A stretch of DNA of 47,800 nt from a virus. The stretch lies in UHGV virus genome UHGV-0066790; one strand, written 5' to 3'. The position numbers and the translations under genes were made by a program. How positions within the stretch are numbered: the first letter of the stretch is position 1; each line of letters begins with the position of its first letter. The notes below the pieces were generated by a model. That model had not been told where the DNA came from and did not search any database. It was given only the letters and a program-made list of their open reading frames with translations. This document shows, one piece after another, positions 2,873 to 45,326 of this stretch.

Positions 2873-2923
2873 TATGGATGGTGTGCAGGGGCGCGGCTGC
2901 ATGAACAACGCGCGGGGTAACAT

Positions 2924-15218: not shown

Positions 15219-17027
15219 TCAGTACCCGAATGCGCTGTCTGCTTGCGCAGTTTGATTACGAAGTGCCGGAACCACTCCTTGGGCCATCCCTTCCGCATCC
15301 GTAGCCTGTGTGTAGACCTTGACCTCACCCACATGGGTGGTTGACGTCATCTGACGCGAATTGTTGACGTTGCTCACGCTTCCCGGACGCGCATCCCCGG
15401 CGCGCACCTGCGGCGGCAGAATAGACGGGCGGACATCATCAACCCGCATCGAATCGGCGACGCCGCCGGGCTTGGACTCGGCCTTCGTTTCTTCCGGTCG
15501 CGAAGACTCATCGCCGCCGAGCCAGTCCTTGATCCAGTCGGGAAGCAAATTGTAGAGCTTCTGGGCTACCCAGTTCAGCATTTCGACAAGCACATCATTG
15601 ATTTTGGAGATGCCTCCCCAGATCGTTTTGAGGGCTTCGATAACGCCTTTTCCGTCCAGCGTAAGAACGGAGTTGAAGAGCTTGGCGACCCCCGAAAGGG
15701 CATCCCAGACGCCCCCGAGGATACTTTTGATGCCTTCCCAAATAGCCTTGAAACGAGCCCCGATTTCATCGCCAGTTCCGAACATCGACCAGAGCCCGGA
15801 AAGTGCAGATTCTCCGCCGTTGATGTAGGTAATGAGATCGTCGACAACCAGCGCGATCGCGCCGATGCCCGCAATCAACGGCGTAAACGGGGCAATCGCA
15901 GCCCATGCCGCCGTCGCCATCGCGGTCAGGGCCGGGAGCATGAGCGTCGTAATGACCCCGGCTAACGCCGTAAAGAAGACGATCACGAACTGCTTGTTTT
16001 CTTTCACCCACCCGAGGAGATCGCCGAGCAGGTTCGTCAAAAACGTGATCGCAGGGGAGACGGTGCTGGCGAAAAGGGCTGAGATGGCCTCCCATGCGTC
16101 ATTGAGCCGCTGCTGCGCCTCCCGTTGCTTCTTCGCGTTTTCGATGTCCTGCTTGCTGTAGATGGCTTGAGCCTTCTGGACTTTCAGAAGATCCTCAATC
16201 CCTTTGCGGCCCTTGAGGATGAGCGGGATGGTTTTTTCGTCGAAGCCGATCTGCGTGAGGATCGAGGTCGCCTTCTGGCGGCCGATTTTTGACGTGGCGT
16301 CGGAGAGACGAAGGAGTCCTTCTTCAAAGGAAACGGCCTTCCCTTTCGCATCCGTGAAGCTCACCCCTAGGTCTTTGGTCGCGTCCTTAAGCGGCCCGGA
16401 GTCGTGCAAAATGAGATCCTGCATCCAGTCGCCCAAATCCATGAACCGTGTCGAAAGCTCTTCGGCGTCAACCCCAGCGGCGGCTGCCGTCCGTTGCCAT
16501 GCCTGCCAATCTTCAATGCTCATGCCGAGCGCATCCGAAGTCTTCTCAATAGCCTGAGCCTGCTCGTAATACTGCGCTATGGAGCTTTTCAGGATTGAGA
16601 CACCGCCGATGACTGCGAGGGCCTGCGCTGCCACGCTCTTGAGCCGTTCAAAGCCAAACGCGCCTTTGTCCGCCGCGTCTTCCAGCGAAACGCCCAATCT
16701 TTTCGCGGCGGCATCAAGGGCCTCAAGACGTTCTTTTGCCGCTCCGGTGCGGATAAGCTCCTCGCGCATCCGCTGATACTCTTTCGTAACCTCACTGATT
16801 TCGCGGCCTTTTTGCACGGCTTCCTCGAAGGCGGCTTGCAACGAAGAGGCGGCATCGGCAGACTGGCCAAGACCTTGGGCCCCCTTGACGCCTGCGTCAT
16901 ATGTCGCGCGCCCCGCGTCAACGGCTGCGGCCTGCACGCCGTCCAGTCCTTTTTGGGCGTTCTGCACTTGAGCTTTGAAAGCCCCTGCGGAGAGGATGAG
17001 GGAAACGACGAGTTCACCTGCGTTCAT
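15219..17027 (-). CDS. Tail tape measure protein
   Basis: 602 aa, Ala/Gln-rich coiled coil with a central hydrophobic segment (FVIVFFTALAGVITTLMLPALTAMATAAWAAIAPFTPLIAGIGAIALVV). Located after the chaperone. Confidence 0.8.
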   Translation of the reverse strand: MNAGELVVSLILSAGAFKAQVQNAQKGLDGVQAAAVDAGRATYDAGVKGAQGLGQSADAASSLQAAFEEAVQKGREISEVTKEYQRMREELIRTGAAKERLEALDAAAKRLGVSLEDAADKGAFGFERLKSVAAQALAVIGGVSILKSSIAQYYEQAQAIEKTSDALGMSIEDWQAWQRTAAAAGVDAEELSTRFMDLGDWMQDLILHDSGPLKDATKDLGVSFTDAKGKAVSFEEGLLRLSDATSKIGRQKATSILTQIGFDEKTIPLILKGRKGIEDLLKVQKAQAIYSKQDIENAKKQREAQQRLNDAWEAISALFASTVSPAITFLTNLLGDLLGWVKENKQFVIVFFTALAGVITTLMLPALTAMATAAWAAIAPFTPLIAGIGAIALVVDDLITYINGGESALSGLWSMFGTGDEIGARFKAIWEGIKSILGGVWDALSGVAKLFNSVLTLDGKGVIEALKTIWGGISKINDVLVEMLNWVAQKLYNLLPDWIKDWLGGDESSRPEETKAESKPGGVADSMRVDDVRPSILPPQVRAGDARPGSVSNVNNSRQMTSTTHVGEVKVYTQATDAEGMAQGVVPALRNQTAQADSAFGY

Positions 17028-17277
17028 GGAATTTGCTCCAGAGGCGTTGGTTGTGGCCGTCCACGGCGATGATTTCTAGCATCTCGTAAGCATCGGACAG
17101 GCCGTATACTGTCTGCATCTCGTGCAGCGTCGCGAGGTTCCGGCTTACCGGGATGCCGACGCATCCGGGGAGGTTTGCGTAGTCCCGGAGCCCGAGGGGT
17201 TGAGAATCTGCAACAGGCGGGAGGTCAAGTCCTCGCCGCCCTGCAAAAAATCCAGACAGACGGCGATGGCCTCCCAA
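17014..17277 (-). CDS. Tail assembly chaperone frameshift extension (GT-like)
   Basis: The -1 frame relative to G overlaps 17145..17277 and terminates inside the tape-measure start codon region (stop TGA within ATGAACGCAGGTGA). Confidence 0.5.
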   Translation of the reverse strand: MGGHRRLSGFFAGRRGLDLPPVADSQPLGLRDYANLPGCVGIPVSRNLATLHEMQTVYGLSDAYEMLEIIAVDGHNQRLWSKFHERR

Positions 17278-17654
17278 CGCAGGCGGTAGATCGTGCCCAC
17301 GTCCTCGACATGGGCGTCGAGGTTTTGCGGAGTGAGACGGATAGCATCATCGGGCTTTCCGGGGTTCGGGACGCGGTAGATTTGCCCGAGAAGCTCGTCA
17401 TAGAGCGGTTCGGCCTGTTCCCACCGGAGCCCCGAGAGTCCCCGGAGCCCGGCGGAAAGCAGCGCGGCGGTGTTCGATGACGCTGAAAGCGTTCGGATGT
17501 CGGCGGGCATCTCGGAACCGAAGACGGCGAGCAGCGCACGGGCGGCCCATTTTTCCAGCTTGGTGACGGGCATTTCCTTGACCTTGAAGGTCTTCCCGGC
17601 GTCGCGGCCCTTGTCAATGGAAATGATCTTTTCGTTGAGCATGACGGCCTCCAC
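17145..17654 (-). CDS. Tail assembly chaperone (G-like)
   Basis: Between the tube and tape measure genes. Contains the slippery sequence T TTT TTG. Confidence 0.6.
   Translation of the reverse strand: MEAVMLNEKIISIDKGRDAGKTFKVKEMPVTKLEKWAARALLAVFGSEMPADIRTLSASSNTAALLSAGLRGLSGLRWEQAEPLYDELLGQIYRVPNPGKPDDAIRLTPQNLDAHVEDVGTIYRLRWEAIAVCLDFLQGGEDLTSRLLQILNPSGSGTTQTSPDASASR
17244..17250 (-). promoter_or_regulatory. Programmed -1 ribosomal frameshift slippery heptamer
   Basis: Minus-strand GAT TTT TTG (T TTT TTG) lies in the G frame where the -1 ORF begins to overlap. Confidence 0.45.
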
Positions 17655-17657
17655 GGT

Positions 17658-18107
17658 TTAAAGCGGGCTCGCGGTCCACTGGTCGAAGGTGATGACGAAG
17701 GCGCTCGCTTGCAAGGTCTGAGCGGCGTTGGGGCTGGACTGCACGGAGGTGAGGCCGCCCCGCTTCCCGGTGATCTTCCGGTTGATGCTCGGCATGGCGA
17801 ACTCGGCATTGCAGAGCATCACTTCCCGGGCGGTTTCCTGATACGTCGCCCAATCTTCCATTATCTGACGGCTCGGGCTGTCCGCCGCGAGGGTGATTGT
17901 CACTTCTTTGTTGGTCGGGACCCAACCAAAAGAGGTATGCCCGTCAACGCCCTTTTCCGCGACGACTGGGGTATTCGTGGCGACGCTGACCATCGCGTCG
18001 GTGCTGAACCCCTCGATCTGCACGGGGCTGTCGTAGAGCCCGGGGACCGTCAGGAAAAGCGTGCAATTCGCCGCTGTAATCGTCATGTTGCCGAAGTTGT
18101 CAGCCAT
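17658..18107 (-). CDS. Tail tube protein
   Basis: 149 aa, immediately downstream of the sheath gene. Confidence 0.6.
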   Translation of the reverse strand: MADNFGNMTITAANCTLFLTVPGLYDSPVQIEGFSTDAMVSVATNTPVVAEKGVDGHTSFGWVPTNKEVTITLAADSPSRQIMEDWATYQETAREVMLCNAEFAMPSINRKITGKRGGLTSVQSSPNAAQTLQASAFVITFDQWTASPL

Positions 18108-18118
18108 GTTTTACCTCA

Positions 18119-21543: not shown

Positions 21544-21957
21544 TTAGAACCCCGCATTGCTCTGGAGCGGTTCGGTCTGCGCCTTGGGGTCGTTCTCCAC
21601 ATCCACGGGCTCCAGTCCGTTGCGCAGTTCCGCCCTTTCGTCGGCCTCGTCCACGGCGTCGGCCTTGCGCGCCTGCGCGAAGATGAGCCCTGACTTGAAG
21701 ATTTCCATGTGCGGACCATAGGTCTTTTCAATGTATGCCCAATCGTCGGCGTTCACCCGCGTCAGCCCAAACGCGCCCACGGGCAGCACGCCCTTTTCCT
21801 TTCCGCGCAGGCTGGCGGCGTTGCCTTCGATGAGCACCTTACGTCCGTCGGGCATGGGGAACGTGATCCCGGTCGTCCGGTTCAAGGCGACCATCACGGT
21901 ATCCGTCTTCGTCGCCTGCGTTGTTTCCGGGGCGGTATTCTTTTTGGGTCTGGCCAT
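21544..21957 (-). CDS. Hypothetical virion protein (first gene of a late operon)
   Basis: Internal ATG (MARPKKNT...) with GGAGGG RBS. About 55 nt downstream of 17-bp motif copy C. Confidence 0.4.
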   Translation of the reverse strand: MARPKKNTAPETTQATKTDTVMVALNRTTGITFPMPDGRKVLIEGNAASLRGKEKGVLPVGAFGLTRVNADDWAYIEKTYGPHMEIFKSGLIFAQARKADAVDEADERAELRNGLEPVDVENDPKAQTEPLQSNAGF

Positions 21958-22012
21958 ATCTCTGTATCCCTCCGTTGTTTTGGTCATCATGGCAAAAGAG
22001 CCGGGACGAAAT

Positions 22013-22031: not shown

Positions 22032-22346
22032 CTATGCAGCACGGCGAAGGCGGTACTTGCCCAGCATGTTCAGGTCGTTTTTCAGGGCCAGCCGGAAGGC
22101 TTCGATCACGTCGACGTGGTACGCCTTCACGCTCCCGAAACGGCTGTCCTCGATTTCCCGGATTTCGTAATCCATACGGCGGGACATATCGGAAAGCTTG
22201 CGTCCCGCGACGGAGTACGCGGCTGGCGTATCTGCGAAGACGTCAAGGAACCACGGGATGCCCTTCACGGACTTGTAGTCCCTGCCCCGCCCAAGTTCGT
22301 TCTCAAGAGCCGCAGCCTTGCGCACGGCGGCGGAGGCGGTTGCCAT
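22032..22346 (-). CDS. Hypothetical protein
   Basis: 104-aa ORF with ATG start. Protein-like composition. Confidence 0.4.
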   Translation of the reverse strand: MATASAAVRKAAALENELGRGRDYKSVKGIPWFLDVFADTPAAYSVAGRKLSDMSRRMDYEIREIEDSRFGSVKAYHVDVIEAFRLALKNDLNMLGKYRLRRAA

Positions 22347-22410
22347 CGCGGTAGCCTCGCGGCGTGAACCGATTTCAGCCTTGGTGCGGATAGCCTCGTC
22401 GCGCTCGGCT

Positions 22411-22731
22411 TCGATGCTTCCCGTCGCATCGTCACTATACCGCGACCGCGTGAGGGAGCTTGAACGGCTCGAACAGGATTGGATGGAACTTGCAGTCCTG
22501 ATCCGCGACCGCGCTTATGGACTGGAACGAGACTTCCGCCGAGTGACGCAAGGAACGTATCCCGAACTGCTCCGGCATGTATCGCCATCCGGGAAGACGC
22601 CCGTTGCCGCGCTTATCCAGCTCATGACAGCCCCAACCTACACCGCCCGGCAAAACCTCGAATCCGCGCTTGATGATATGCGTCTTGCCATCCGTGCCGC
22701 GAAGACGGCAAACAGGTTGATGCTAGGGTAA
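22411..22731 (+). CDS. Hypothetical helical protein
   Basis: ATG at 22411 in the track ORF 22318..22731. Fills an otherwise 400-bp gap. Divergent from the 22032..22346 gene. Confidence 0.3.
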   Translation, partial: SMLPVASSLYRDRVRELERLEQDWMELAVLIRDRAYGLERDFRRVTQGTYPELLRHVSPSGKTPVAALIQLMTAPTYTARQNLESALDDMRLAIRAAKTANRLMLG

Positions 22732-22786
22732 TCCTTGGCAAGCCTGCATGAATCATATAAGACTTTACCAACGGAGGGATTCCCCC

Positions 22787-23098
22787 ATGCTGCTGTTCGA
22801 TGATGGGAAAAAGCTTGAAAAGGCCGTCGGCGAGGAAGCCGCAAAAGCCATCGTGGAAGTACTGGAACGCTTTGACGAGAGTCAAAGGAACGCCAGTGCC
22901 ACCAAGGGAGATCTGCGCGAAACGGAACTGCGGTTGCAAAAAGAAATTCGGGAATTGGACCTGAAAATGCAAGCGGAGGTCGAAAAAATTCGTGCTGAAG
23001 TGTTGAAGGTCAAGTATGATCTTTTGAAATGGCAAATCGCCATAGGGTTTGCCCTTGTCGCAGTTATGGCCAAGGGCTTCGGCTGGCTCGGATTCTAA
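22787..23098 (+). CDS. Coiled-coil membrane-anchored protein (DUF1640/XhlA-like)
   Basis: RBS GGAGGG. Coiled coil TKGDLRETELRLQKEIRELDLKMQAEVEKIRAEV then a C-terminal TM helix WQIAIGFALVAVMAKGFGWLGF. Confidence 0.45.
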   Translation: MLLFDDGKKLEKAVGEEAAKAIVEVLERFDESQRNASATKGDLRETELRLQKEIRELDLKMQAEVEKIRAEVLKVKYDLLKWQIAIGFALVAVMAKGFGWLGF

Positions 23099-23114: not shown

Positions 23115-23156
23115 TAGAAAAGGGGTGGCTTTAAGAGCCGCCCCTTTTTGTTTTTC
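23115..23156. terminator. Bidirectional rho-independent terminator
   Basis: GGGGTGGCTTTAAGAGCCGCCCC hairpin with GAAAA before and TTTTTGTTTTT after. Confidence 0.6.
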
Positions 23157-23214
23157 TGCCTCTCCCTTCTGTTACTGACGAGTTAAAAAAGATAAAACTT
23201 TTTTTTGAAAAAAT

Positions 23215-23278
23215 TGTTTATTTTTTCAAAAAATGGTGCTATTGTATTTTCAACGAAAGGGACAAAAGGAGAGTTCTC
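23215..23278 (+). promoter_or_regulatory. Promoter/leader P1 with conserved -10/leader motif
   Basis: AT-rich with inverted repeats TTTTTTTTGAAAAAA/TTTTTTCAAAAAA. TATTGT then TTTTCAACGAAAGGGACAAAAGGAGA is shared with P2 at 45273-45322. Confidence 0.4.
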
Positions 23279-23635
23279 ATGATAACCATCACCACAGCCA
23301 ACAACGAAACAACTCTTGAAAACGACAAGGCTTTCTGTGCATATCGTATCGAAACAGAAATCGATTTTGATGAAGATGGTTATGAAGTGGACGGAGAGCA
23401 ATATGTGCTCATCGAAAAGCTTTTTGTTCCCTCAGAGAATCGCGGAAACGGCATTGCCCGCCGCCTTCTTCGTGAAGCCGTCTCTCACGCTCGCGCTACT
23501 TACCCCGGAATGGCGATTCGGTTGGTAGCTGAACCTCTGGATGCCGATACAGATATGGATCGGCTGGTGGCCTTTTATGAAAGCGAAGGTTTTGATGTGA
23601 TCGAAGCTGGCGAAATCGTAGTAATGGAACACTAA
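23279..23635 (+). CDS. Small GNAT-fold acetyltransferase-like protein
   Basis: 118 aa with an acetyl-CoA motif-A-like segment ENRGNGIARRLLREAV. Low GC relative to the flanks. Confidence 0.5.
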   Translation: MITITTANNETTLENDKAFCAYRIETEIDFDEDGYEVDGEQYVLIEKLFVPSENRGNGIARRLLREAVSHARATYPGMAIRLVAEPLDADTDMDRLVAFYESEGFDVIEAGEIVVMEH

Positions 23636-23655
23636 ACAGAACAAAGGAGTAAGAC

Positions 23656-23826
23656 ATGACCCGCTATTCTATCCTGCTCACGACTGGCACAACGGGAACC
23701 ATCGATACCGAACAGCATCTTGAAGAGGGCATGGAAGTAGTCATCACCTTGCACGATGAAAACGGAAACAGAACGCAGGAAACCGGACTCATCGCTGAAA
23801 TTCTTGACGAAGAATTTTTAGGGTAA
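23656..23826 (+). CDS. Small hypothetical protein (56 aa)
   Basis: RBS AAAGGAGTAAGAC then ATG. MTRYSILLTTGTTGTIDTEQHLEEGMEVVITLHDENGNRTQETGLIAEILDEEFLG. Below the track's 60-aa cutoff. Confidence 0.4.
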   Translation: MTRYSILLTTGTTGTIDTEQHLEEGMEVVITLHDENGNRTQETGLIAEILDEEFLG

Positions 23827-23848
23827 TCGAATTAAAAGGAAAAACACC

Positions 23849-24349
23849 ATGAAGCTGTACCACGGAAGCTTGATTGAACATCTGGCTATCTCTAACTCAG
23901 GAACAGGGTTAGGGTATAACTTCGGTGCGGTGTTCTTTGCCCGTACTTACGGACATGCAAAGGAATACGGAAATTACGTCTACCAGTGCGAAATAGACAT
24001 CGAGGACATCTTCTTGAACGAGGATCTCCCGTATCTTGAAGATGGCGCTGCTGGAACGGCTCTACGTGAAGTTATGGCAGAGCGCGGTATAGACGAAAAG
24101 TATTTTGATCTCTGCTGGTATGCCGTGGTTGAAGAGAAAATTGGTTATCAAGATGAAGACTGGGTAAACCTCCTCAACATGGATGACGATGACGCAAGTT
24201 GGGAGGCTCAGGCCATGCGGATCGCCTTTGCCCGTAAGCTCGGCTTCAAGGCTGTTGAAATGGATGACGAATGCGGCAGCATTGCGGTTCTTCCCGAGTT
24301 CATAAAGCTGGAAGCGGCAACGGAGGAATACGATGAAGAGGAAGACTAA
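23849..24349 (+). CDS. LYHGS-motif protein (DUF3990-like putative ART-fold) with acidic tail
   Basis: N-terminus MKLYHGS...GYNFGAVFFARTYGHAKEYG resembles the DUF3990 signature. The C-terminus is Asp/Glu-rich (MDDDDASWE...EEYDEEED). Confidence 0.45.
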   Translation: MKLYHGSLIEHLAISNSGTGLGYNFGAVFFARTYGHAKEYGNYVYQCEIDIEDIFLNEDLPYLEDGAAGTALREVMAERGIDEKYFDLCWYAVVEEKIGYQDEDWVNLLNMDDDDASWEAQAMRIAFARKLGFKAVEMDDECGSIAVLPEFIKLEAATEEYDEEED

Positions 24350-25724
24350 GATAGACATCGACGATCTTATCGATTTCAGTTCAAAGCTGGTGAACTCGAA
24401 TTCCAGCGTCGGTATTCGCTTGTCGTCGGGTGCCGCGCTCGCCCTTCCGTACCTGTCCACGAGGACATGTCTTGCGGCAGGGATTTCTATGCCGCTGGAT
24501 ACGGCAAACGGGGCCAAGGATGTGGGAAAGGTAAGTGCTCTATACAAAAAACTCGAAGAAGGGGAGGAAGGAGAGAAAGCAGATACAGAGGCGGCATTGA
24601 AGAAAATCCGTAAAACAGGATTTGCCAGAAAAACAGAGTCTGTCGACAGACGGATTCGTCAACTGCTCATCCCTAAAGACGTACCCTCTGGGTATGTCTC
24701 TTTGTCTCCCCTCCCCTCCATTGGACTTTCCGTTTTGCTGTTAGGAGCCGTTACAAGGCATAATCAAGATGTCTTTTCAAAAAAGAAGGAAGGTATCAAA
24801 ATTCGACGGGCACATCTCGCTTTGGGCGGGGCAAACCCTCAGAATCTAGGATACGCTGCGTCCAAAAAGGCGATACAATATCCTGTTTTTCTTTCTACAC
24901 CCAAATCCGTGCGCGGAAATGCCAGCCGTCAGGCGTCAGGAAAGGGAACTTACCTGATCCTTTCCAATCTCTTTGTGCAAACGGCAAACATCTTGACGAA
25001 TTATACTATGCTCAACGGCGCGCCCCTCTTTGCAGCATGGGGGATGGGACATGCACTGGAGCGCGAGATGCATGGTCCCAAAGTTACCGGAGTATGCCTT
25101 GTTGTGCATAGCATCGAACCCCTTGGGGAGCATGAAACCGCTATTTTCGAGCCTAGCCAAAGAGTAGGAGCGGCTTTTACTTTTGAAAAATCCCGTAACG
25201 GGAGCGACTACGCAAAAGGCTCCACACATCTCTCTTTGCAGCCCGGTGCAACGGGGCATATACGGGTGAGCCTTATCTTTGAACTGTCGGAAGCCCTGCA
25301 TTCCGTACCGAACGCCGTGGATCTTTTCTTGAACTTCGGAAAGTTCTCCGGTGGGCTGATCACTTCATACGACGCCCCGGCTTTGCATGATGACCGCTCT
25401 ACGCTTCTAGAGTGCATTCCCGCCGGGAAAGTTGTTTTGGATCGGCGCGACGTTATGAGCCCTGGAAACCCCATTGAACAGCTTGTAACCGCGATAGGAA
25501 CGTACAGCGGAAAATGGCTGTCCGCAACGAATATCGGTTTTTCAGCAATCACAGACTTTCAAGTTCGCGGAGGGGCACGGAACGGGTGCCTCCATGCTTT
25601 TGCGGAGCCGCTGATCGGCATTACAGAATACGTCTCTACTGAAAAGAGGATACACGGGTATTTCTGGCGCAGCCAGTGGGAAGAAGATAGCTTTTTGATG
25701 AGGGGAGATTCAACAAATGAATGA
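24333..25724 (+). CDS. Large protein of unknown function (463 aa)
   Basis: Overlaps the upstream stop by 17 nt and the downstream start by 8 nt (ATGAATGA). No recognisable catalytic motif. Confidence 0.55.
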   Translation: MKRKTKIDIDDLIDFSSKLVNSNSSVGIRLSSGAALALPYLSTRTCLAAGISMPLDTANGAKDVGKVSALYKKLEEGEEGEKADTEAALKKIRKTGFARKTESVDRRIRQLLIPKDVPSGYVSLSPLPSIGLSVLLLGAVTRHNQDVFSKKKEGIKIRRAHLALGGANPQNLGYAASKKAIQYPVFLSTPKSVRGNASRQASGKGTYLILSNLFVQTANILTNYTMLNGAPLFAAWGMGHALEREMHGPKVTGVCLVVHSIEPLGEHETAIFEPSQRVGAAFTFEKSRNGSDYAKGSTHLSLQPGATGHIRVSLIFELSEALHSVPNAVDLFLNFGKFSGGLITSYDAPALHDDRSTLLECIPAGKVVLDRRDVMSPGNPIEQLVTAIGTYSGKWLSATNIGFSAITDFQVRGGARNGCLHAFAEPLIGITEYVSTEKRIHGYFWRSQWEEDSFLMRGDSTNE

Positions 25725-25938
25725 TGCACAAGAAAAAAAGCAGGGGGGACGCCGTAAAGGATCTGGACGTAAAAAAAAGGTTGAAAATCGTGCAACAGTA
25801 AAGACTGTATCTATGCCGGATCATGTCTGGGAACGGCTGAACGATGTATGTACAGATAGGGGTATCCTACGCTCACAGGTAGTACGGGAAGCAGTCGAGA
25901 TGTGGCTGGACGCAAATATACAGCAGCTTGGAAAATGA
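25717..25938 (+). CDS. Ribbon-helix-helix (CopG/ParD-like) DNA-binding protein
   Basis: Basic N-terminal arm (KKQGGRRKGSGRKKK), then beta-strand and helix TVKTVSMPDHVWERLNDVCTDRGILRSQVVREAVEMWL. Confidence 0.55.
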   Translation: MNDAQEKKQGGRRKGSGRKKKVENRATVKTVSMPDHVWERLNDVCTDRGILRSQVVREAVEMWLDANIQQLGK

Positions 25939-25951
25939 CGCCTGACTACGT

Positions 25952-25992
25952 AAAGAAAGCCCCAACCGCCTGTTTAACGGTTGGGGCTTTCG
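25952..25992. terminator. Bidirectional terminator between the island and the capsid gene
   Basis: AAAGAAA, then GCCCCAACCGCCTGTTTAACGGTTGGGGC hairpin, then TTTCG. Confidence 0.55.
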
Positions 25993-26011: not shown

Positions 26012-27025
26012 CTAGGCTCCAGTCATTTGCGCAAAGGCAAAGGGCATGAGCACGATACCGCCGTAGGTGGTGCCGACGAACTTCTGACGGAAGCTGGACA
26101 GGTCGGGCACGACGCGTCCAGCACGCATCTTTTCTCCGAAGGCCAGCGTGCCGGATCGCTGCCCGTTCACTTCGGGGGCGATGAGGAACATGGTTTCCCC
26201 GGCGGTCATGCTGTGCAGCTCGGGGACGGTCACGATGTCAATGCGGGTGAAGTACCGCTTCAACATATCCAGCACGGACACGTTGAAATCGGTAGCCGCG
26301 CCGAGGCGAACGGCCAGTTCGGGGGAGAGGCAGAGCTTGAGGGGCGTGTCTTTGTCAATAAGGCCGCTGGACTGCTCGGAAAGCTGTGCGAACAGGGCGA
26401 GGACGTCGTTGTAGATTTGCACCGTGGTCTTGTCGGCCCATTTCGTGGAGCCGCCCGTGCCCGTGGCCCCTGCGGTGATCGCAGCAGGGAGGTTCGGATC
26501 GTTGAGGATGCCGTAGATTTCCTTCCCGGCGACGCCGAGCAGGTAGAAACGGTTCTGGTCGATGTCGATGACGTTGGCGGCCGCACGCTGCTTGGAGGCA
26601 GCGAGGTTGACTTTCGCCGTGCTCGACATGTCCACTTCAAAGTCTCCGTAGGTGATGGACGTCTGGAAGACGTACTGCACGCGGGTTTGCCATTCGGAGT
26701 TCACGCCCGAAGTCGTGCCGTTGGCATAGTCGGAATACGGCTCGGTCTTTCCGGTCATTTCGTCCACGCGCCACTTCATGTACGGGGTCGTCCAATCGCC
26801 CTTCTTCTCTTCACCGAAGATTTCACGGGCGCGCCGGGGCGCGGTCAGGATTTCGATGACCATCGGGTCGATATACGCCAGAAGCTCGGCGGGGACGGTC
26901 GTGTTCGGAGTAGTGATGAGCGCGGCGTCCTGCGCAATGCGGGCGCGGTTCTCCGGAGTTGCCCACATGCGGGCGCCCGGGAAGATAAAGCCGTAGCGCT
27001 TGGCCTGTTCAAAAGTCGGATTCAT
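26012..27025 (-). CDS. Major capsid protein
   Basis: 337 aa, last gene of the portal-scaffold-capsid operon. Confidence 0.65.
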   Translation of the reverse strand: MNPTFEQAKRYGFIFPGARMWATPENRARIAQDAALITTPNTTVPAELLAYIDPMVIEILTAPRRAREIFGEEKKGDWTTPYMKWRVDEMTGKTEPYSDYANGTTSGVNSEWQTRVQYVFQTSITYGDFEVDMSSTAKVNLAASKQRAAANVIDIDQNRFYLLGVAGKEIYGILNDPNLPAAITAGATGTGGSTKWADKTTVQIYNDVLALFAQLSEQSSGLIDKDTPLKLCLSPELAVRLGAATDFNVSVLDMLKRYFTRIDIVTVPELHSMTAGETMFLIAPEVNGQRSGTLAFGEKMRAGRVVPDLSSFRQKFVGTTYGGIVLMPFAFAQMTGA

Positions 27026-32617: not shown

Positions 32618-35600
32618 TTATATTCTCCTTCCCATACGTGGCTGATTGAGGATGGCGGGGTTGATGCACATGGGCCGCTTGGTATCGAAATCACGCAGCG
32701 CCTGTGTTGTGGCGTCCACTTGGTCGTCGTGGGGCGCACCGGGGAACTGTGTCAGTTCCGCGACGTACTCCCGCGCCCACGGGCAATGCTCAGGGTGCGG
32801 GAGCAGGACGTTCCCGGCCTCGAAGAACGTGGTCACGGCATGGGCCCGGGCCGTCTTGCTGCCGTCCGGCTCCACGGGGATGATACCGGGCACAGCATGT
32901 TTCAGCGCGTCGATAACCGCCGGGCCGTTGGCCTTATCCTCCACCAGCTTACGGGCTGCGCCGGGCCATTTAGCGGCGAGCGCCCGGAACGCGGCGACCG
33001 TATCCGTAAATCCCATGCGCCGCCGGACCTGATCGAGGAGGTAGCGGTCGGCCCCCTTGCGGCCCCACACCTGCCCCACAACAAAGTCGGTATCGTCGCC
33101 GTCTTTGAACGTCATATCCCACGAGATAAGGAGCTGGTCGAACTGCTCCGGAAGGTCTTTGGGGAGCCAGAACCGCAGCCACTCGGATTTGAATATGGCG
33201 CCGCCGTCTGGCGTAGGCCGCTGCTGGTACAGGGCTTCCCAGTCGCGTGTGCCGAGGGCTTTCTTAATGGCAAGAAGCTGCTCCAACGGGTAGCGTTCAG
33301 GGTGTAAGGCTTCACCTGCCCTACGGTGCAGCTCGTCTTCCGTTGCGATGGCGGGGAAGTTCACTACGCGCCAGTGGTCGCCCTCCCCCCGTGCGGCGGC
33401 CTCAAGCAGCCGCCCTGAGAGGTCAGCCATGTGCCAGCGAGTGTTGATGATGAGCACCCCTCCACCGGGCGCGAGGCGCGTGTACAGCGTGGACGTGTAC
33501 CAGTCCCAGACGTTCTGGCGGATGGTCGGGGAATCGGCGGACGCCCGGTCCTTGAACGGGTCGTCGATGATAGCGCAGTTGTGGACAAGGACACCGCCGG
33601 CAAAGAAGTTCTGATTACGTGCTACTTGGATATCAACAAAACGGCGTGCTGTTCCGTATATTCGCGCAATGTTGGCAATATGTCCCGCTTGTACTGTTCT
33701 TCTTTCATGCCGTGCAAGATCCTGTGGCACTTGCTGCACAGCGTAATCAAGTTTGTCGCAACATTGTTGATCGGAATAAGATCCATGTGATGAACCTCCA
33801 ACCGTGTTTCCTCCTTGCCACATAGAACACAACGATGCTGATCCCTGTCTAAAATCAAAGGCCGAAACTGTCGGAATGCCCGCGCAGAGTGCACCTGTTC
33901 CCGCAAGGGAGTCATGCCGTGACGGTATCGGGGATTCCCCTTGCCAGACATCAGAATAGAGTGTGCAATTTCGCTGCACCGCTTGCTGCAATACTTGGCA
34001 AAAATACCGCGTCCCCTGTGGGCAGACATAAAGAGCTTGTTGCAGATAGGGCAAATTTTTTCTCTGGGCTGATGCTCGACAGGGACCTGGCTCGGCTTCT
34101 TGAATTTTGCGGCACATTCCGGGCAGGTCTTTGCCCCTTTGGTTCTCCCTGTGTGTTTGATGATCCGTCCACAACCGGGGCACGTCTTGCTGTTCTTGAC
34201 TGCATGATGGGCACAAGAATGTTCCTTGCAGCAGTAGAAATCTTTCATCCCCTTCCTGATATTTTTGGCCACCACATAAGCCGGCCTCACAAACTCCAGG
34301 CCACACCAGGCACAAGATAGGATCACCCGTGGCAATTGATGATGCAGGGGTATATTCCCCCCGTGAAAAGATCGGATGGTTTCCTGTAACTTCAAGAACT
34401 CTGCCAAGGGCATCGCGTAATCGGTAGCTTTCTTCTGCATATCGATCCTTTACCGCTATCACTATATCAGTTTCAATTTCCCCCGTTTGATGATTGTATG
34501 ATAGCACGTTATCCCCGACTTGTAGGGTCTCGATAGCGCGATCTCCGTCAGGAGTCGCAATTTGTGTTCCAATGACAACGCATTCCGCACCCATGCCCGT
34601 GATGCCGCCGCCCACGCCAGCGGAACGGTAGCAGCCAGCGTGCCCCACCACCTCGAATATGTCCGAATTGCGGAGGTAGGAGCCGTTCCCGACTGTGCGG
34701 ATGTTCTTGCCGTACAGCGCCGTGCCGGGAAAAAGTTCCCGATATTCCGGGCTGTCGATGACGCGCTGCACGTCGCGGTTCATGCGCGAGGACAGGTCGG
34801 CGGCGTAGCTTGTGGAGATAATGGAGAGATCGGGGTAACGGCCCAAGGCGTAGGCCGGGAAACGGCGGGAGGCCAGCTCGCTATTGTGGGTTATCGTAAG
34901 GTGTTTGCCAACTAAATATAAGCCATCTGGACTATCCACCTGAATACAATTCCCCATTTTAGGCGACTCTAGCGCTCGTACACATTTGATGGATACGCGC
35001 CGACGCAGAGAAGAAAACGTTTTATTAACTTTTTTCCGTTCAAGTCTGCACGGGACAACTACACCGGAAAAGAAAAATGACACCACATAAACCTGTGACT
35101 TATTTTTAATCGTTCTTTCCCGATTATCTAGTGCTGGGATATTTGTATGCGCTACAAACCCGCATAGCATGGCCAATTCTTCTACATCATGCGCTAACAG
35201 CTCATTGGATGTTGTAAAACGATATCTGTTTGTCTTTCTATCAAAATGACCATCCGTATCAATAAGTCCAGCAAGCAAGTCAAGCCTGTTTTCTAGGCTA
35301 TCATGCTTGTACTCATTAGGAATATGTTTATTTTTTAGCAGATCAGCATCTTTTAGAGCCTGCGAAAATATATTTCTTCTATTTTTCACGCCGCTGGCAA
35401 ATGAAAAAGTTTCAACTCCAGTATCTCTATGCACCCATGTTCCAGTTATTGGCACACCTAGTCGTTCAAACTCCATTTTGACGACACAAGCGTCATCAGG
35501 AGCCATGTTTATTCTGGGCGCGATTGACGTTCCATCACCTAACCACACGCCCAAAACGTATGGCGGGATAACGTGTTCTACGGCAGGCCATTGGGGAGCA

Positions 35601-36151
35601 TCAGCTGTGTCCACCTGATACAAATACCTGTGCCCTCTGGTGTCTGGGATACCGCTATCCAGCTTCCTAAGCGCCTTAGTTTTTTTGCTTGGCTCCACAA
35701 AGTATCGTGTCTCAACTGTTCTATATCCGGGTTTAGTCCTGTCATACACCCGCCACTCATGATCAAGGTGCACATCTATTATGTCGCCATTGGTAAAAAC
35801 AACAGAATGAGTGGCAAAATTTTTCTCGCCCACAGCAACAACCCTCACAGGTTTGCCACTTGGGTGAAATACATAATCACCAACCTTAAGCGCACCATGA
35901 GTTTTCCACCCATCAACCGTCAAAACAGGAGTATCATCAGCGCACAGTTTCCCATGTCGCGGCGGCATGGTCAGCATGAGGCGCGGGGAACGTCCGGCCA
36001 CGACATCGGCAAGGAAGGCGTCCAGCTCGGAACAGATTTCCTCATGCACCCATCCCATCTTGTAGCCGGGCATGGTGTAGCGCACGAAGGCCGCGAGGCA
36101 ACTCCGGGCCAGCGCCTTCCTGATGTCGGCAAGGATGGATGGGCTACTCAT
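32618..36151 (-). CDS. terL: Terminase large subunit interrupted by two inteins
   Basis: Exteins: residues 1-69 (…MPPRHGKL, P-loop), 424-523 (…GHAGCYRSAGVGGGITGMGAE), 859-1177 (CAIIDDP... nuclease domain with HDDQVDATTQAL). Confidence 0.8.
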   Translation of the reverse strand: MSSPSILADIRKALARSCLAAFVRYTMPGYKMGWVHEEICSELDAFLADVVAGRSPRLMLTMPPRHGKLCADDTPVLTVDGWKTHGALKVGDYVFHPSGKPVRVVAVGEKNFATHSVVFTNGDIIDVHLDHEWRVYDRTKPGYRTVETRYFVEPSKKTKALRKLDSGIPDTRGHRYLYQVDTADAPQWPAVEHVIPPYVLGVWLGDGTSIAPRINMAPDDACVVKMEFERLGVPITGTWVHRDTGVETFSFASGVKNRRNIFSQALKDADLLKNKHIPNEYKHDSLENRLDLLAGLIDTDGHFDRKTNRYRFTTSNELLAHDVEELAMLCGFVAHTNIPALDNRERTIKNKSQVYVVSFFFSGVVVPCRLERKKVNKTFSSLRRRVSIKCVRALESPKMGNCIQVDSPDGLYLVGKHLTITHNSELASRRFPAYALGRYPDLSIISTSYAADLSSRMNRDVQRVIDSPEYRELFPGTALYGKNIRTVGNGSYLRNSDIFEVVGHAGCYRSAGVGGGITGMGAECVVIGTQIATPDGDRAIETLQVGDNVLSYNHQTGEIETDIVIAVKDRYAEESYRLRDALGRVLEVTGNHPIFSRGEYTPASSIATGDPILCLVWPGVCEAGLCGGQKYQEGDERFLLLQGTFLCPSCSQEQQDVPRLWTDHQTHRENQRGKDLPGMCRKIQEAEPGPCRASAQRKNLPYLQQALYVCPQGTRYFCQVLQQAVQRNCTLYSDVWQGESPIPSRHDSLAGTGALCAGIPTVSAFDFRQGSASLCSMWQGGNTVGGSSHGSYSDQQCCDKLDYAVQQVPQDLARHERRTVQAGHIANIARIYGTARRFVDIQVARNQNFFAGGVLVHNCAIIDDPFKDRASADSPTIRQNVWDWYTSTLYTRLAPGGGVLIINTRWHMADLSGRLLEAAARGEGDHWRVVNFPAIATEDELHRRAGEALHPERYPLEQLLAIKKALGTRDWEALYQQRPTPDGGAIFKSEWLRFWLPKDLPEQFDQLLISWDMTFKDGDDTDFVVGQVWGRKGADRYLLDQVRRRMGFTDTVAAFRALAAKWPGAARKLVEDKANGPAVIDALKHAVPGIIPVEPDGSKTARAHAVTTFFEAGNVLLPHPEHCPWAREYVAELTQFPGAPHDDQVDATTQALRDFDTKRPMCINPAILNQPRMGRRI
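33578..34582 (-). mobile_element. Intein 2 (Hint domain) in the terL Walker B site
   Basis: Begins CVVIGTQIATPDG, block B TGNHPIF, ends FVDIQVARNQNFFAGGVLVHN before Cys. The central region in the terL frame is low-complexity. Confidence 0.6.
33622..34440 (-). CDS. HNH endonuclease with Zn-ribbon repeats, encoded in a different frame inside intein 2
   Basis: Multiple CxxC pairs. C-terminal HNH motif CVLCGKEETRLEVHHMDLIPINNVATNLITLCSKCHRILHG. Frame is +1 relative to terL. Confidence 0.65.
   Translation of the reverse strand: MQKKATDYAMPLAEFLKLQETIRSFHGGNIPLHHQLPRVILSCAWCGLEFVRPAYVVAKNIRKGMKDFYCCKEHSCAHHAVKNSKTCPGCGRIIKHTGRTKGAKTCPECAAKFKKPSQVPVEHQPREKICPICNKLFMSAHRGRGIFAKYCSKRCSEIAHSILMSGKGNPRYRHGMTPLREQVHSARAFRQFRPLILDRDQHRCVLCGKEETRLEVHHMDLIPINNVATNLITLCSKCHRILHGMKEEQYKRDILPTLREYTEQHAVLLISK
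34883..35944 (-). mobile_element. Intein 1 (Hint + double LAGLIDADG homing endonuclease) in the terL Walker A site
   Basis: Begins CADDTPVLTVDGW, contains LGVWLGDGTS and LLAGLIDTDGHF, ends ...VGKHLTITHN before Ser. Confidence 0.7.
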
Positions 36152-39619: not shown

Positions 39620-40170
39620 AACGCCGCCTTCCTGTTGTCCGAGGTTCTCGGCTGTTTTAAAATGCGCCACACCTGCCGTTCGGAAAGCCCGTGCAGCGTG
39701 GCGAGCCTGGCGACAAGCGCTCTTTCACTCAGCCCCTTACGAGCCAACTCGTCCCGCTCGGCGTTGATGTCCATGTCCCGTGCGCGGATCTTCGCCCGGC
39801 GCAAAGTGGGGATATAGATTCTCGTACCGCCATAGGTGTGCAGAAAGTCGGAAAGGGCATCCTGCCCCAAGAAGGCGCACAATTCCCGAGTTAGCTGCGT
39901 CTTCCGGCTTTTGGCGGGAATAATAAGAGTTATACCCGCGAAGCGTTCAATCATGTGCCGGACAAAGGGCTTTCCGAAACGGTCGGACATGTCTTGCAGT
40001 GTTTCCGGCAACGATTCTTCCCTGTACGTGCTCATCACACACTCCTTTTCATCAAATGCCCCAACACACGCACCGGGGCCGAAAATTTCACAATACCTTG
40101 GGCACTCAAACATGAACCAACCCAAGAACAGACAAAAGCCAATGCGCGGTTTTTGGCCCGATAGCCCCAT
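39616..40170 (-). CDS. Mor/C-family transcriptional activator (Mor-like paralog)
   Basis: GGTRIYIPT...RDMDINAERDELARKGLSERALVARLATLHGLSERQVWRIL matches the Mor family. Real start probably an internal ATG (MSTYREESLPE...). Confidence 0.6.
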   Translation of the reverse strand: MGLSGQKPRIGFCLFLGWFMFECPRYCEIFGPGACVGAFDEKECVMSTYREESLPETLQDMSDRFGKPFVRHMIERFAGITLIIPAKSRKTQLTRELCAFLGQDALSDFLHTYGGTRIYIPTLRRAKIRARDMDINAERDELARKGLSERALVARLATLHGLSERQVWRILKQPRTSDNRKAAL

Positions 40171-40221
40171 GACATGCGGCGGATACGATGCAGCCCTTCA
40201 AAAACCAGCGGATACTGAGCA

Positions 40222-40509: not shown

Positions 40510-40510
40510 A

Positions 40511-45227: not shown

Positions 45228-45251
45228 AGAAGAAAATTTTGCTTTTTTCTC

Positions 45252-45322: not shown

Positions 45323-45326
45323 AGCC

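What the first reader, a model, noticed from the sequence alone, without database searches (positions are those of the whole stretch)
23215..25992. Low-GC plus-strand moron island inside the head-tail block
Five translationally coupled + strand genes sit between the capsid operon and head-tail operon on the opposite strand: GNAT-like, a 56-aa ORF, an LYHGS/acidic protein, a 463-aa protein and an RHH protein. They have their own promoter, are bracketed by bidirectional terminators, and are clearly lower in GC than the flanks. The position mirrors the morphogenesis-module hotspots where Mu-like phages keep anti-defense (acr/aca) or defense cargo. None of the five proteins has an assignable function, so this is the best candidate for an uncharacterised accessory system in the window.
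Basis: partly seen in the sequence, partly recalled or inferred. Interest (0 to 1): 0.75.

Follow-up and report, generated by a model that had tools for sequence, protein, structure and literature searches.

The report
Phage anti-CRISPR operon with Cas decoy
This low-GC island in a Bilophila wadsworthia phage is an anti-CRISPR operon: it holds a known-type enzyme inhibitor (AcrIF11 family), a phage copy of two fused CRISPR subunits that has lost the part that calls in the nuclease, and a small regulator, all apparently aimed at the host's type I-F CRISPR system.

Summary
The five + strand genes, the GC drop (48% against 60-61%) and the flanking hairpins are real. The claim that none has an assignable function is wrong.

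- **g3 (166 aa)** is an AcrIF11-family anti-CRISPR ADP-ribosyltransferase: NCBIfam 106 bits against a cut-off of 50, with the catalytic D-E loop kept.
- **g4 (463 aa)** fuses the N-terminal domain of Cas8f to a complete Cas5f. [quoted passage not shown] Both halves are under purifying selection.
- **g5** is a ribbon-helix-helix protein at the operon's 3' end.
- **g1 (small GNAT) and g2 (56 aa)** form an optional module of unknown target.

The host species has a complete type I-F locus. A Bilophila spacer matches this phage at 28 of 32 bases next to a CC PAM. The promoter block and g5 stay constant while the cargo between them varies, and many sister phages lack the cassette.

Best reading: an acr-aca operon against type I-F, in which g4 acts as a dominant-negative Csy subunit. 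That mechanism is inferred, not shown.

A 59%-identical homologue is already listed, untested, in a supplementary table of orphan viral cas genes (Katz et al.). I rate this a new variant of a known kind, of moderate interest.

The parts
23117..23149 (+). Strong hairpin followed by a T-run. It terminates the upstream + strand gene (22748-23098) and marks the left edge of the operon.
   Evidence: Terminator scan: 15-bp stem. Fold: -25.4 kcal/mol, z -5.3.
23198..23237 (.). Two AT-rich palindromes, TTTTTTGAAAAAA (23201-23213) and TTTTTTCAAAAAA (23221-23233), 20 bp apart. Candidate operator for the g5 regulator; they overlap the -35 region.
   Evidence: The motif occurs 3 times in the window against 0.12 expected. 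It is invariant in sister phages whichever gene follows. Binding by g5 is inferred.
23237..23278 (+). Candidate extended -10 (TG-C-TATTGT, 23237-23245) and a conserved 5' UTR (TTTTCAACGAAAGGG...AAAGGAGAG) with the ribosome-binding site.
   Evidence: Sequence. Conservation across cassettes and across two phage backbones. The promoter call itself is weak.
23279..23635 (+). g1: minimal GNAT acetyltransferase (118 aa, pI 4.2). Optional module; target unknown.
   Evidence: Pfam Acetyltransf_7 1.2e-7, 32.5 bits against a cut-off of 27. Present in only 1 of 32 close IMG/VR relatives, and always together with g2.
23656..23826 (+). g2: 56-aa acidic protein (pI 4.1) of unknown function. Travels with g1.
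   Evidence: No significant family hit. Co-occurs with g1.
23849..24349 (+). g3: AcrIF11-family anti-CRISPR ADP-ribosyltransferase (166 aa).
   Evidence: NCBIfam NF052490 2.5e-30, 106.2 bits against a cut-off of 50, residues 1-146 on model positions 1-140 of 142. PF26151 is on record for the same-sized ORF at the same position in L006-L013, 99-100% identical to g3. PDB matches: 8DWQ (AcrIF11Pae2) 5e-6 and 6KYF (AcrIF11) 1e-3. The MDDECG loop aligns with the catalytic D146/E147 loop, and the N-terminal LYHGS motif is kept.
24333..25724 (+). g4: fusion of the Cas8f N-terminal domain (residues about 8-192) to a complete Cas5f (residues 206-463). The Cas8f C-terminal helical bundle is absent. Proposed decoy subunit.
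   Evidence: PADLOC Cas8f 2.7e-20 (residues 10-193 on model positions 27-216 of 401) and Cas5f 1.8e-21 (residues 208-453 on 1-249 of 254). BLASTP against host Cas8f: 35% identity to residues 41-252 of 420. Against host Cas5f: 40% over its whole length. Alignment and a pLDDT 92.9 model of a full-length relative place the break at the start of the all-helical C-terminal domain. dN/dS is 0.09-0.26 in both halves for the three pairs that are 59-89% identical, and about 0.44 for the near-identical L045 pair.
25717..25938 (+). g5: basic 73-aa ribbon-helix-helix protein (pI 10). Aca-like regulator at the operon's 3' end.
   Evidence: Four weak hits agree on residues 30-66: Pfam RHH_1 0.018, PDB CopG regulator 7BY2 0.006, PHROG repressor 1e-4, NCBIfam aCcr1 4.5e-4. 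It is retained where the cargo is swapped or g4 is deleted.
25955..25991 (.). Bidirectional terminator hairpin between g5 and the convergent capsid gene.
   Evidence: -27.4 kcal/mol on + and -29.7 kcal/mol on -; z -5.9 and -6.6. Sequence.

Best explanation
The island is an anti-CRISPR operon of a Bilophila wadsworthia temperate phage, aimed at the host's type I-F CRISPR-Cas system. It is transcribed from its own AT-rich promoter and ends at a bidirectional terminator.

**g3** is an AcrIF11-type ADP-ribosyltransferase. By analogy with the studied AcrIF11 proteins, it modifies the PAM-reading asparagine of host Cas8f, so existing Csy complexes can no longer bind DNA.

**g4** is a phage-borne, covalently fused Cas8f(N-terminal domain)-Cas5f. 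Inference: it competes with the host Cas8f-Cas5f pair for the crRNA 5' handle and the Cas7f backbone during assembly. Because it lacks the C-terminal helical bundle that carries the Cas2/3 recruitment helix, the complexes it enters cannot call in the nuclease. This would be a dominant-negative subunit, as shown for the Cas5 homologue AcrIB3 in type I-B.

**g5** is a ribbon-helix-helix repressor that probably binds the two palindromes at the promoter and limits expression, as Aca proteins do.

**g1 and g2** are an optional extra module, possibly another anti-defence pair, with no known target.

Shown here: family memberships, domain architecture, selection, host system, spacer match, modularity.
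Inferred: incorporation of g4 into Csy, loss of Cas2/3 recruitment, operator binding by g5.
For: 1. g3 passes the curated AcrIF11 cut-off over its full length and keeps the catalytic D-E loop.
2. g4 is the Cas8f N-domain plus a whole Cas5f. It shares all 49 columns that are invariant across the nine-sequence Cas5f alignment A1, of which it is itself a row.
3. The missing Cas8f segment is the all-helical C-terminal domain. In the pLDDT 92.9 model of relative P0101, residues from about 217 to 382 are six helices. The model's top 11 PDB matches are all Cas8f chains of Csy complexes, and g4 ends at about P0101 residue 222. That bundle carries the Cas2/3 recruitment helix (10.1101/453720).
4. dN/dS of 0.09-0.26 in both halves of the three more diverged pairs shows the gene is functional, not decaying.
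5. B. wadsworthia ATCC 49260 has a complete I-F locus with an array. A spacer from an uncultured Bilophila array matches window 16441-16472 at 28 of 32 bases with a 5'-CC PAM.
6. g3 and g4 are adjacent in 21 of 22 loci that carry g4.
7. The promoter block and g5 are constant while the cargo varies. g4 is deleted to a remnant in L052 and L062, and a different 389-aa gene takes its place in L076.
8. The same cassette sits in two unrelated phage backbones.
9. A related prophage carries a solitary copy of the host I-F repeat next to its g4 homologue.
10. Precedents exist: AcrIB3/AcrIB4 and the ribbon-helix-helix regulator Aca14.
Against: - No experiment bears on any of these proteins.
- g4 itself could not be modelled (mean pLDDT 41.7), so contacts with Cas7f and crRNA are untested.
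- g4 is only 35-40% identical to the host subunits, so it may not fit the host complex.
- Its GC (50.6% against about 60% for host cas genes) points to an old or foreign origin.
- g4 keeps a conserved GGANPQN motif (residues 165-171). From memory I believe this is the PAM-wedge loop. If so, g4-containing complexes might still bind DNA, and g4 might itself be a substrate of g3.
- g4 is dispensable in some sister phages that keep g3 and g5.
- g5 has no detectable similarity to Aca14, and its ribbon-helix-helix hits are all below curated cut-offs.
- It is unknown whether the genome carrying this particular prophage has a I-F system.
Confidence: 0.7

Rival explanations
1. g4 is a hijacking subunit rather than a plain inhibitor. 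Together with host Cas7f, Cas6f and crRNA (or, in relatives, RNA from a phage-borne solitary repeat) it builds a nuclease-free, RNA-guided DNA-binding complex. The phage would use this to silence host or competitor genes, or to soak up Cas7f.
For: - g4 keeps the whole Cas5f part and the conserved motifs of the Cas8f N-domain, under purifying selection.
- Natural Cas8-Cas5 fusions that do not use Cas2/3 exist in type I-F3 transposon systems. These are the best PDB sequence hits of g4.
- A solitary repeat, 25 of 28 identical to the host repeat and with its hairpin kept, lies about 95 nt from the g4 homologue in L003, L004 and L005.
Against: - The window has no repeat, array, cas7f or cas6f.
- g4 is tightly linked to AcrIF11, which abolishes DNA binding by Csy.
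- Some sister phages dispense with g4.
- Solitary repeats are already explained as RNA anti-CRISPRs (PMC10651486, listed).
Confidence: 0.1
2. Only g3 is a working anti-CRISPR. g4 is a leftover of a former phage-borne type I-F system with no current anti-defence role.
For: - Phage-encoded I-F systems exist (paper titles).
- g4 is deleted in L052 and L062 without loss of g3 or g5.
- g4 is annotated simply as Csy2.
Against: - dN/dS is 0.09-0.26 across both halves in pairs that are 59-89% identical.
- The reading frame is intact in hundreds of contigs.
- It overlaps both neighbours in a translationally coupled arrangement.
- The same truncated architecture is kept in all members, and no other cas gene lies nearby in any locus.
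Confidence: 0.1
3. The island, or part of it, is a toxin-antitoxin or defence module. A GNAT toxin (g1) would be held in check by a ribbon-helix-helix antitoxin (g5), as in the TacT/TacA, AtaT/AtaR and KacT/KacA pairs. It would stabilise the prophage or exclude other phages.
For: - GNAT and ribbon-helix-helix domains are both present.
- In L011 and L013 a different 56-aa ribbon-helix-helix gene sits directly upstream of the g1 homologue.
Against: - g1 is 118 aa. From my own knowledge, GNAT toxins are about 160-175 aa.
- g1 and g5 are separated by three genes.
- g5 occurs without g1 in nearly all relatives, and g1 travels with g2, not g5.
- PADLOC finds no defence model for g1, g2 or g5.
- The neighbours are anti-CRISPR genes.
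Confidence: 0.05

Closest known systems
AcrIF11 (anti-CRISPR ADP-ribosyltransferase; PDB 6KYF and 8DWQ)
   Same: g3 passes the NCBIfam family cut-off over its full length. It keeps the N-terminal (L/F)HGS motif and the M-x-D-E-x-G catalytic loop. It is phage-borne and sits in an operon with a small regulator.
   Different: It comes from a Desulfovibrionaceae phage. From PDB entry titles and from memory, the Cas8f it would meet is very distant from the P. aeruginosa protein (16-21% identity for relative P0101). It has an acidic C-terminal tail. Activity and target residue are untested.
AcrIB3 and AcrIB4 (viral Cas5 and Cas8b-CTD homologues that inhibit type I-B; Katz et al. 2024)
   Same: A phage-encoded homologue of Cascade tail subunits, about 35-40% identical to the host proteins. 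It is missing an element needed for function and lies in an anti-defence cluster.
   Different: Type I-F, not I-B. Two subunits are fused into one chain. It keeps the N-terminal part of the large subunit, whereas AcrIB4 is the C-terminal part. It loses the nuclease-recruiting bundle rather than the Cas5 hook. Untested.
Cas8/Cas5 fusion of type I-F3 CRISPR-associated transposons (TniQ-Cascade)
   Same: A natural Cas8f-Cas5f fusion in a system that does not use Cas2/3. These give the best direct PDB sequence hits of g4 (30ga_G and 9vtq_G).
   Different: Those proteins are 640-695 aa with a complete Cas8 part. From my own knowledge they come with cas7, cas6, an array and tns/tniQ genes. None of these is in the window.
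[quoted passage not shown]
   Same: It exploits the same interface, Cas2/3 recruitment by the Cas8f helical bundle. It was the case that prompted the idea of cas genes as raw material for anti-CRISPRs (10.1101/453720).
   Different: AcrIF3 resembles the bundle and sequesters Cas2/3. g4 is the complementary piece: everything except the bundle.
Aca14 (ribbon-helix-helix anti-CRISPR-associated regulator)
   Same: A small ribbon-helix-helix protein at the 3' end of an acr operon, with AT-rich inverted repeats at the promoter.
   Different: BLASTP finds no similarity to the Aca14 sequence. The operator sequence differs. Binding is untested.
RNA anti-CRISPRs (Racr; solitary repeat units)
   Same: A solitary copy of the host I-F repeat lies beside the g4 homologue in the B. 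wadsworthia 3_1_6 prophage.
   Different: The window has none, even allowing up to 9 mismatches.
AcrVA5 (minimal GNAT anti-CRISPR)
   Same: g1 is a very small GNAT in an acr operon.
   Different: No AcrVA5 chain appears among g1's PDB sequence hits at E up to 1. Target unknown.

Membership tests
AcrIF11 family (g3) | Full-length match to the curated family model above its cut-off | tested here: met
   NF052490: 106.2 bits against a cut-off of 50, E 2.5e-30, residues 1-146 on model positions 1-140 of 142. PF26151 is on record for the 99-100% identical protein in L006-L013.
AcrIF11 family (g3) | Conserved acidic catalytic pair in the NAD-binding loop (D115/E116 in Pae1, D146/E147 in Pae2) | tested here: met
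   g3 D140/E141 in MDDECG align with MQDEQG of 8DWQ and MEDEHG of 6KYF.
AcrIF11 family (g3) | ADP-ribosylates the PAM-reading asparagine of Cas8f and blocks DNA binding | not testable with these tools
   Needs biochemistry.
Viral Cas-homologue anti-CRISPRs (AcrIB3/AcrIB4 kind) (g4) | Homologue of a Cascade subunit on a virus, with no array and no complete cas operon | tested here: met
   A homologue is listed as an orphan viral cas gene in Katz et al., Table S3.
Viral Cas-homologue anti-CRISPRs (AcrIB3/AcrIB4 kind) (g4) | Lies among known anti-CRISPR or anti-defence genes | tested here: met
   Overlaps the AcrIF11-family gene. The two are adjacent in 21 of 22 loci.
Viral Cas-homologue anti-CRISPRs (AcrIB3/AcrIB4 kind) (g4) | Lacks or alters an element the genuine subunit needs | tested here: met
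   The Cas8f C-terminal helical domain (about 160-170 aa) is absent.
Viral Cas-homologue anti-CRISPRs (AcrIB3/AcrIB4 kind) (g4) | Assembles into a defective interference complex and inhibits immunity | not testable with these tools
   Needs pull-downs and interference assays. The model of g4 was too poor to use.
Canonical type I-F CRISPR-Cas system | cas1, cas2/3, cas7f, cas6f and a repeat array next to cas8f/cas5f | tested here: not met
   The window has no array or repeat. None of the 20 ORFs scanned gave any other cas match; most window ORFs were not scanned. No called gene around the g4 homologues carries another Cas Pfam family.
Type I-F3 Cas8/Cas5 fusion (CRISPR-associated transposons) | Fusion with a complete Cas8 part (640-700 aa), next to cas7, cas6, an array and tns/tniQ | tested here: not met
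   g4 is 463 aa and lacks the Cas8 C-terminal domain. Cas8 length is; the expected gene neighbourhood is from my own knowledge. No neighbouring cas7/cas6 or array in the window or in relatives' loci; tns/tniQ were not specifically searched.
Aca14 (ribbon-helix-helix Aca) | Sequence homology to Aca14 | tested here: not met
   BLASTP finds no alignment at E up to 100.
Aca proteins in general (g5) | Small DNA-binding protein at the end of an acr operon, conserved while the acr cargo varies | tested here: met
   The ribbon-helix-helix assignment rests on four weak but concordant hits.
Aca proteins in general (g5) | Binds inverted repeats in the acr promoter and represses it | not testable with these tools
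   Candidate palindromes at 23201-23213 and 23221-23233. Binding is untested.
GNAT / ribbon-helix-helix toxin-antitoxin pairs | Antitoxin gene directly next to a GNAT toxin of about 160-175 aa (size from my own knowledge), inherited together | tested here: not met
   g1 is 118 aa, three genes away from g5. g5 occurs without g1 in most relatives.
AcrVA5 family (g1) | Sequence similarity to AcrVA5 | tested here: not met
   No AcrVA5 chain among PDB hits at E up to 1. Only generic GNAT hits appear.
RNA anti-CRISPR (solitary repeat unit) | Solitary copy of the host CRISPR repeat on the phage | tested here: not met
   None in the window with up to 9 mismatches. Present in relatives L003, L004 and L005.

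The most novel reading that the evidence does not exclude
The truncated Cas8f-Cas5f fusion is not just a poison subunit. It would re-arm the host's own Cas7f, Cas6f and crRNAs (or, in relatives, RNA from the phage's solitary repeat) into a nuclease-free RNA-guided DNA binder that the phage uses for its own ends, such as silencing host cas genes or a competing prophage. This would be a phage-side counterpart of what CRISPR-associated transposons did with the same fusion.
Probability: 0.08. Interest if true: 0.85.

Novelty: new variant of a known kind. Interest (0 to 1): 0.55.

Why it matters
- **A traceable origin.** If g4 works as proposed, it is a type I-F example of an anti-CRISPR made from cas genes whose origin can still be read. 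A single in-frame deletion from mid-cas8f to the cas5f start would produce this architecture. In the host locus the two genes overlap by 4 nt.
- **Two different strategies in one operon.** The operon pairs an enzyme that disables existing complexes with a decoy that would spoil new ones. That gives a testable model of how the two strategies cooperate.
- **A clinically relevant host.** Bilophila wadsworthia is a human gut pathobiont (from my own knowledge) with few genetic tools. These proteins could help switch its CRISPR system off.
- **A tool for I-F biology.** The fusion is a natural probe for what the Cas8f helical bundle does.
- **Limit on novelty.** The concept was already established for type I-B, and this gene family already sits in a published supplementary list. 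The gain is incremental rather than conceptual.

Tried and rejected
1. **AlphaFold2 of g4** with the 25 sequences I assumed were permitted gave mean pLDDT 41.7 and was unusable.
2. **Deeper full-length alignments** (A7, A8, A10) failed. MAFFT placed the Cas8f fragments on the Cas5f half. I therefore modelled a full-length Cas8f relative instead.
3. **Mapping to P. aeruginosa Cas8f by sequence** failed. Searches with host Cas8f, a Cas8f profile and Acinetobacter Cas8f found no Cas8f in the PDB. My equating of the GGANPQN motif with the K247-N250 PAM loop therefore rests on memory only.
4. **No CRISPR repeat or array in the window**, by Rfam, repeat finder or pattern search with up to 9 mismatches.
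5. **No similar DNA in the phage collection** beyond short Pseudomonas phage hits outside the cassette.
6. **g5 against Aca14 and against the other 56-aa ribbon-helix-helix protein:** no similarity. A homologue search for g5 returned only near-identical proteins.
7. **A second profile search for g4 relatives** added almost nothing.
8. **Rejected: structural role.** The cassette is absent from most sister phages.
9. **Rejected: decaying remnant of a phage CRISPR system.** Purifying selection argues against it.
10. **Rejected: GNAT/ribbon-helix-helix toxin-antitoxin.** The linkage pattern does not fit.
11. **Rejected: CAST-type fusion.** Wrong size and no partner genes.

Full report
**1.

Five + strand ORFs lie between the - strand major capsid gene (26012-27025) and the - strand block ending at 21544-21990:

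| Gene | Coordinates | Length |
|---|---|---|
| g1 | 23279-23635 | 118 aa |
| g2 | 23656-23826 | 56 aa |
| g3 | 23849-24349 | 166 aa |
| g4 | 24333-25724 | 463 aa |
| g5 | 25717-25938 | 73 aa |

- g3/g4 overlap by 17 nt and g4/g5 by 8 nt. The other junctions are 20-22 nt, each with a ribosome-binding site.
- The island is 48.3% GC, against 60.4% and 61.5% on the two sides.
- Strong hairpins bracket it: 23117-23149 and about 25955-25991. The second folds equally well on both strands.
- The generic promoter scan is not convincing on its own. However, a 65-nt promoter and 5' UTR block is conserved base for base in sister phages.

**2. Host and target**

- g4 is 100% identical to a protein NCBI names 'type I-F CRISPR-associated protein Csy2 [Bilophila wadsworthia]'. 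It was seen on 326 contigs, mostly human gut metagenomes.
- B. wadsworthia ATCC 49260 carries a complete type I-F locus: cas2/3, cas8f, cas5f, cas7f, cas6f and cas1. Its array has the 28-nt repeat GTTATCCGCCGTGTAGGCGGTTTAGAAG and 32-nt spacers.
- One spacer from an uncultured Bilophila I-F array matches window 16441-16472 at 28 of 32 positions, directly downstream of a 5'-CC. From my own knowledge, CC is the type I-F PAM.
- By my estimate, a 28/32 match among 181 spacers and about 96 kb of sequence is expected about 3e-6 times by chance. Phages of this kind are therefore under type I-F pressure.

**3. g3 is an AcrIF11-family protein**

- NCBIfam NF052490 scores 106 bits against a curated cut-off of 50, over the whole model.
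- A 99-100% identical protein of the same size at the same position in other contigs carries PF26151, AcrIF11_ADP_ribosyl.
- Direct PDB hits are 8DWQ (identified as AcrIF11Pae2 in PMC12421852) and 6KYF.
- The loop MDDECG (D140/E141) aligns with the catalytic D146/E147 and D115/E116 loops. The N-terminal LYHGS motif matches the (L/F)HGS motif of both structures.
- AcrIF11 ADP-ribosylates N250 of Cas8f and so blocks DNA binding.

**4. g4 is a truncated Cas8f fused to Cas5f**

*Architecture.*
- PADLOC models place residues 10-193 on positions 27-216 of a 401-position Cas8f model. Residues 208-453 lie on positions 1-249 of a 254-position Cas5f model.
- Against the host's own proteins, residues 9-192 are 35% identical to Cas8f residues 41-252 of 420. 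Residues 206-463 are 40% identical to the whole 285-aa Cas5f.
- g4 shares all 49 columns that are invariant across the nine-sequence Cas5f alignment, of which it is one row.
- In a Cas8f alignment, g4 stops right after the conserved MQRPL..AP motif and lacks the remaining 160-170 residues.

*What the missing piece is.*
- g4 itself could not be modelled. A full-length Cas8f relative, P0101, is 44% identical to the g4 N-part and gave a pLDDT 92.9 model.
- Residues from about 217 to 382 of that model form six helices. The top 11 PDB matches are all Cas8f chains of Csy complexes. g4 ends at about P0101 residue 222.
- The missing piece is therefore the C-terminal helical bundle. In P. aeruginosa this bundle rotates on R-loop formation and exposes the Cas2/3 recruitment helix (10.1101/453720).

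*Functional, and unique in this form.*
- In the three pairs that are 59-89% identical, both halves have dN/dS of 0.09-0.26, so the gene is not a relic. The near-identical L045 pair gives about 0.44 from very few substitutions.
- An exhaustive HMMER search of 1.84 billion representatives listed the best 150 of 443 hits. Among these, only this one 50%-identity cluster has the fused truncated form. Every other listed hit matches one half only.

**5. Architecture and mobility of the cassette**

- The identical five-gene cassette sits in two unrelated phage backbones. One has the Mu F head protein, portal_3 and this capsid. The other has a tape-measure protein and Phage_tube_2.
- g3 and g4 are adjacent in 21 of 22 loci that carry g4. 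g1+g2 are a separate optional module.

Among 32 IMG/VR relatives whose capsid protein is at least 97% identical:

| Content at the hotspot | Number of relatives |
|---|---|
| g3-g4-g5 | 6 |
| g3 and g5, with g4 cut down to a 22-40-aa remnant | 2 |
| g5 with other cargo or a contig end (a 389-aa unknown protein in L076) | 3 |
| None of the five genes | 21 |

- One of the 21 (L054) has no insert between the capsid gene and the next structural gene. The same holds for four more distant relatives with an 89%-identical capsid protein.
- The promoter block and g5 are the constant ends and the cargo between them varies. This is the pattern typical of acr-aca operons.
- g5 gives four weak but concordant ribbon-helix-helix hits on residues 30-66.
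- Two AT-rich palindromes 20 bp apart overlap the promoter. A ribbon-helix-helix Aca (Aca14) that binds AT-rich inverted repeats was recently shown (PMC13551039). g5 has no sequence similarity to it.

**6. Mechanism**

*Shown:* an AcrIF11-family gene and a Cas8f(N)-Cas5f fusion under selection. They share one operon with a constant regulator gene, in a dispensable and mobile cassette. The host species has type I-F, and its relatives hold a spacer against this phage.

*Inferred:*
- g3 inactivates existing Csy complexes catalytically.
- g4 is a pre-joined tail module. It competes with host Cas8f and Cas5f during assembly and yields complexes that cannot recruit Cas2/3. AcrIB3, a Cas5 homologue about 38% identical to the host protein, does the equivalent in type I-B.
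- g5 represses the operon.
- A single in-frame deletion from mid-cas8f to the cas5f start would create this architecture, since the two host genes overlap by 4 nt.

*Points that weaken the inference:*
- g4's lower GC and its 35-40% identity to the host proteins argue for an old or foreign capture.
- g4 keeps a GGANPQN motif that may be the PAM loop (my recollection only). It might therefore still bind DNA, or itself be modified by g3.
- g4 is dispensable in some relatives.

**7. Rivals**

- A hijacking role for g4 is not excluded. The solitary host-type repeat next to the homologue in the B. wadsworthia 3_1_6 prophage hints at it. That repeat is equally explained as an RNA anti-CRISPR, and the window has none.
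- A decaying remnant is contradicted by selection.
- A GNAT/ribbon-helix-helix toxin-antitoxin pair is contradicted by gene spacing and by independent inheritance.
- Membership of a CAST-type system is contradicted by size and by the absence of partner genes.

**8. Novelty**

- The kind is known: acr-aca operons, AcrIF11, and viral cas homologues acting as anti-CRISPRs.
- The 59%-identical homologue in the 3_1_6 prophage appears in Table S3 of Katz et al. as separate cas8f and cas5f hits at 16736-17317 and 17348-18115. It was not tested, and in that table it appears only as the two separate hits.
- I found no paper mentioning both Bilophila and anti-CRISPR. Two other full-text searches turned up no paper on a type I-F Cas8f-Cas5f decoy.
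- I therefore rate it a new variant of a known kind.

Noticed in passing
window 45707-45921 (+): Full-length match to HEARO RNA (RF02033, 137 bits against a gathering score of 83). From memory, this is the guide-like RNA normally found with IscB/HNH genes. The next ORF (45995-46735) is a Bro-N/ANT antirepressor-type protein, and no HNH/IscB ORF was seen.
   Followed up: partly
window 32618-36151 (-): The terminase large subunit gene encodes 1177 aa because it carries Hint/intein and LAGLIDADG homing-endonuclease segments.
   Followed up: partly
window 45233-45545 (+): A second small operon has a promoter and 5' UTR resembling the island's (TATTCTGTTTTCAACGAGACGG against TATTGTATTTTCAACGAAAGGG). 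It drives a 72-aa acidic ORF (45327-45545, pI 4.05) with no family hit. It may be co-regulated, and may be another anti-defence candidate.
   Followed up: partly
L003 9688-9715 (- strand); also L004 9689-9716 and L005 3134-3161: A solitary copy of the host type I-F CRISPR repeat (CTTATCCGCCGCGTAGGTGGTTTAGAAG), 25 of 28 identical with its hairpin kept. It lies about 95 nt upstream of, and divergent from, the 59%-identical Cas8f-Cas5f fusion gene of the B. wadsworthia 3_1_6-type prophage. Candidate RNA anti-CRISPR.
   Followed up: partly
window 16441-16472: Protospacer. A spacer from an uncultured Bilophila type I-F array (L016 11848-11879) matches at 28 of 32 positions, with a 5'-CC directly upstream. 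It lies inside the 602-aa - strand ORF 15219-17027.
   Followed up: yes
window 13-228: At least ten tandem copies of a 15-nt unit. The reading frame runs off the window start. The repeat probably encodes a pentapeptide-repeat protein, but I did not translate it.
   Followed up: no
window 440-462 and 47703-47725: Near-identical 23-nt hairpin plus T-run (GGCCCCGACAAGGGGC(T/C)TTTTTA) close to both ends of the window. Its meaning is unknown: repeated terminators, or related to the prophage ends.
   Followed up: no
window 22032-22731: The + strand ORF 22318-22731 is the C-terminal remnant of a 306-328-aa Bro-N protein that is intact in sister phages (L006, L076). The overlapping - strand ORF 22032-22346 matches only the C-terminal part of a phage regulator family. 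The left part of the hotspot has been rearranged in this phage.
   Followed up: partly
L007-L010 and L012, about 1400-3130: In sister phages the same hotspot also carries a PH_gly_zipper protein and a 356-aa protein with an HSDR_N_2 domain. L076 8551-9720 carries a 389-aa protein with no family hit in place of g1-g4.
   Followed up: no
window 35001-35500, 40001-41000, 4001-5000: Further low-GC patches (0.40-0.47) that may mark other accessory genes.
   Followed up: no
window 40511-42301 (-): The replication gene is a Prim-Pol/PriCT primase-polymerase, so the phage is not Mu-like in replication.
   Followed up: yes
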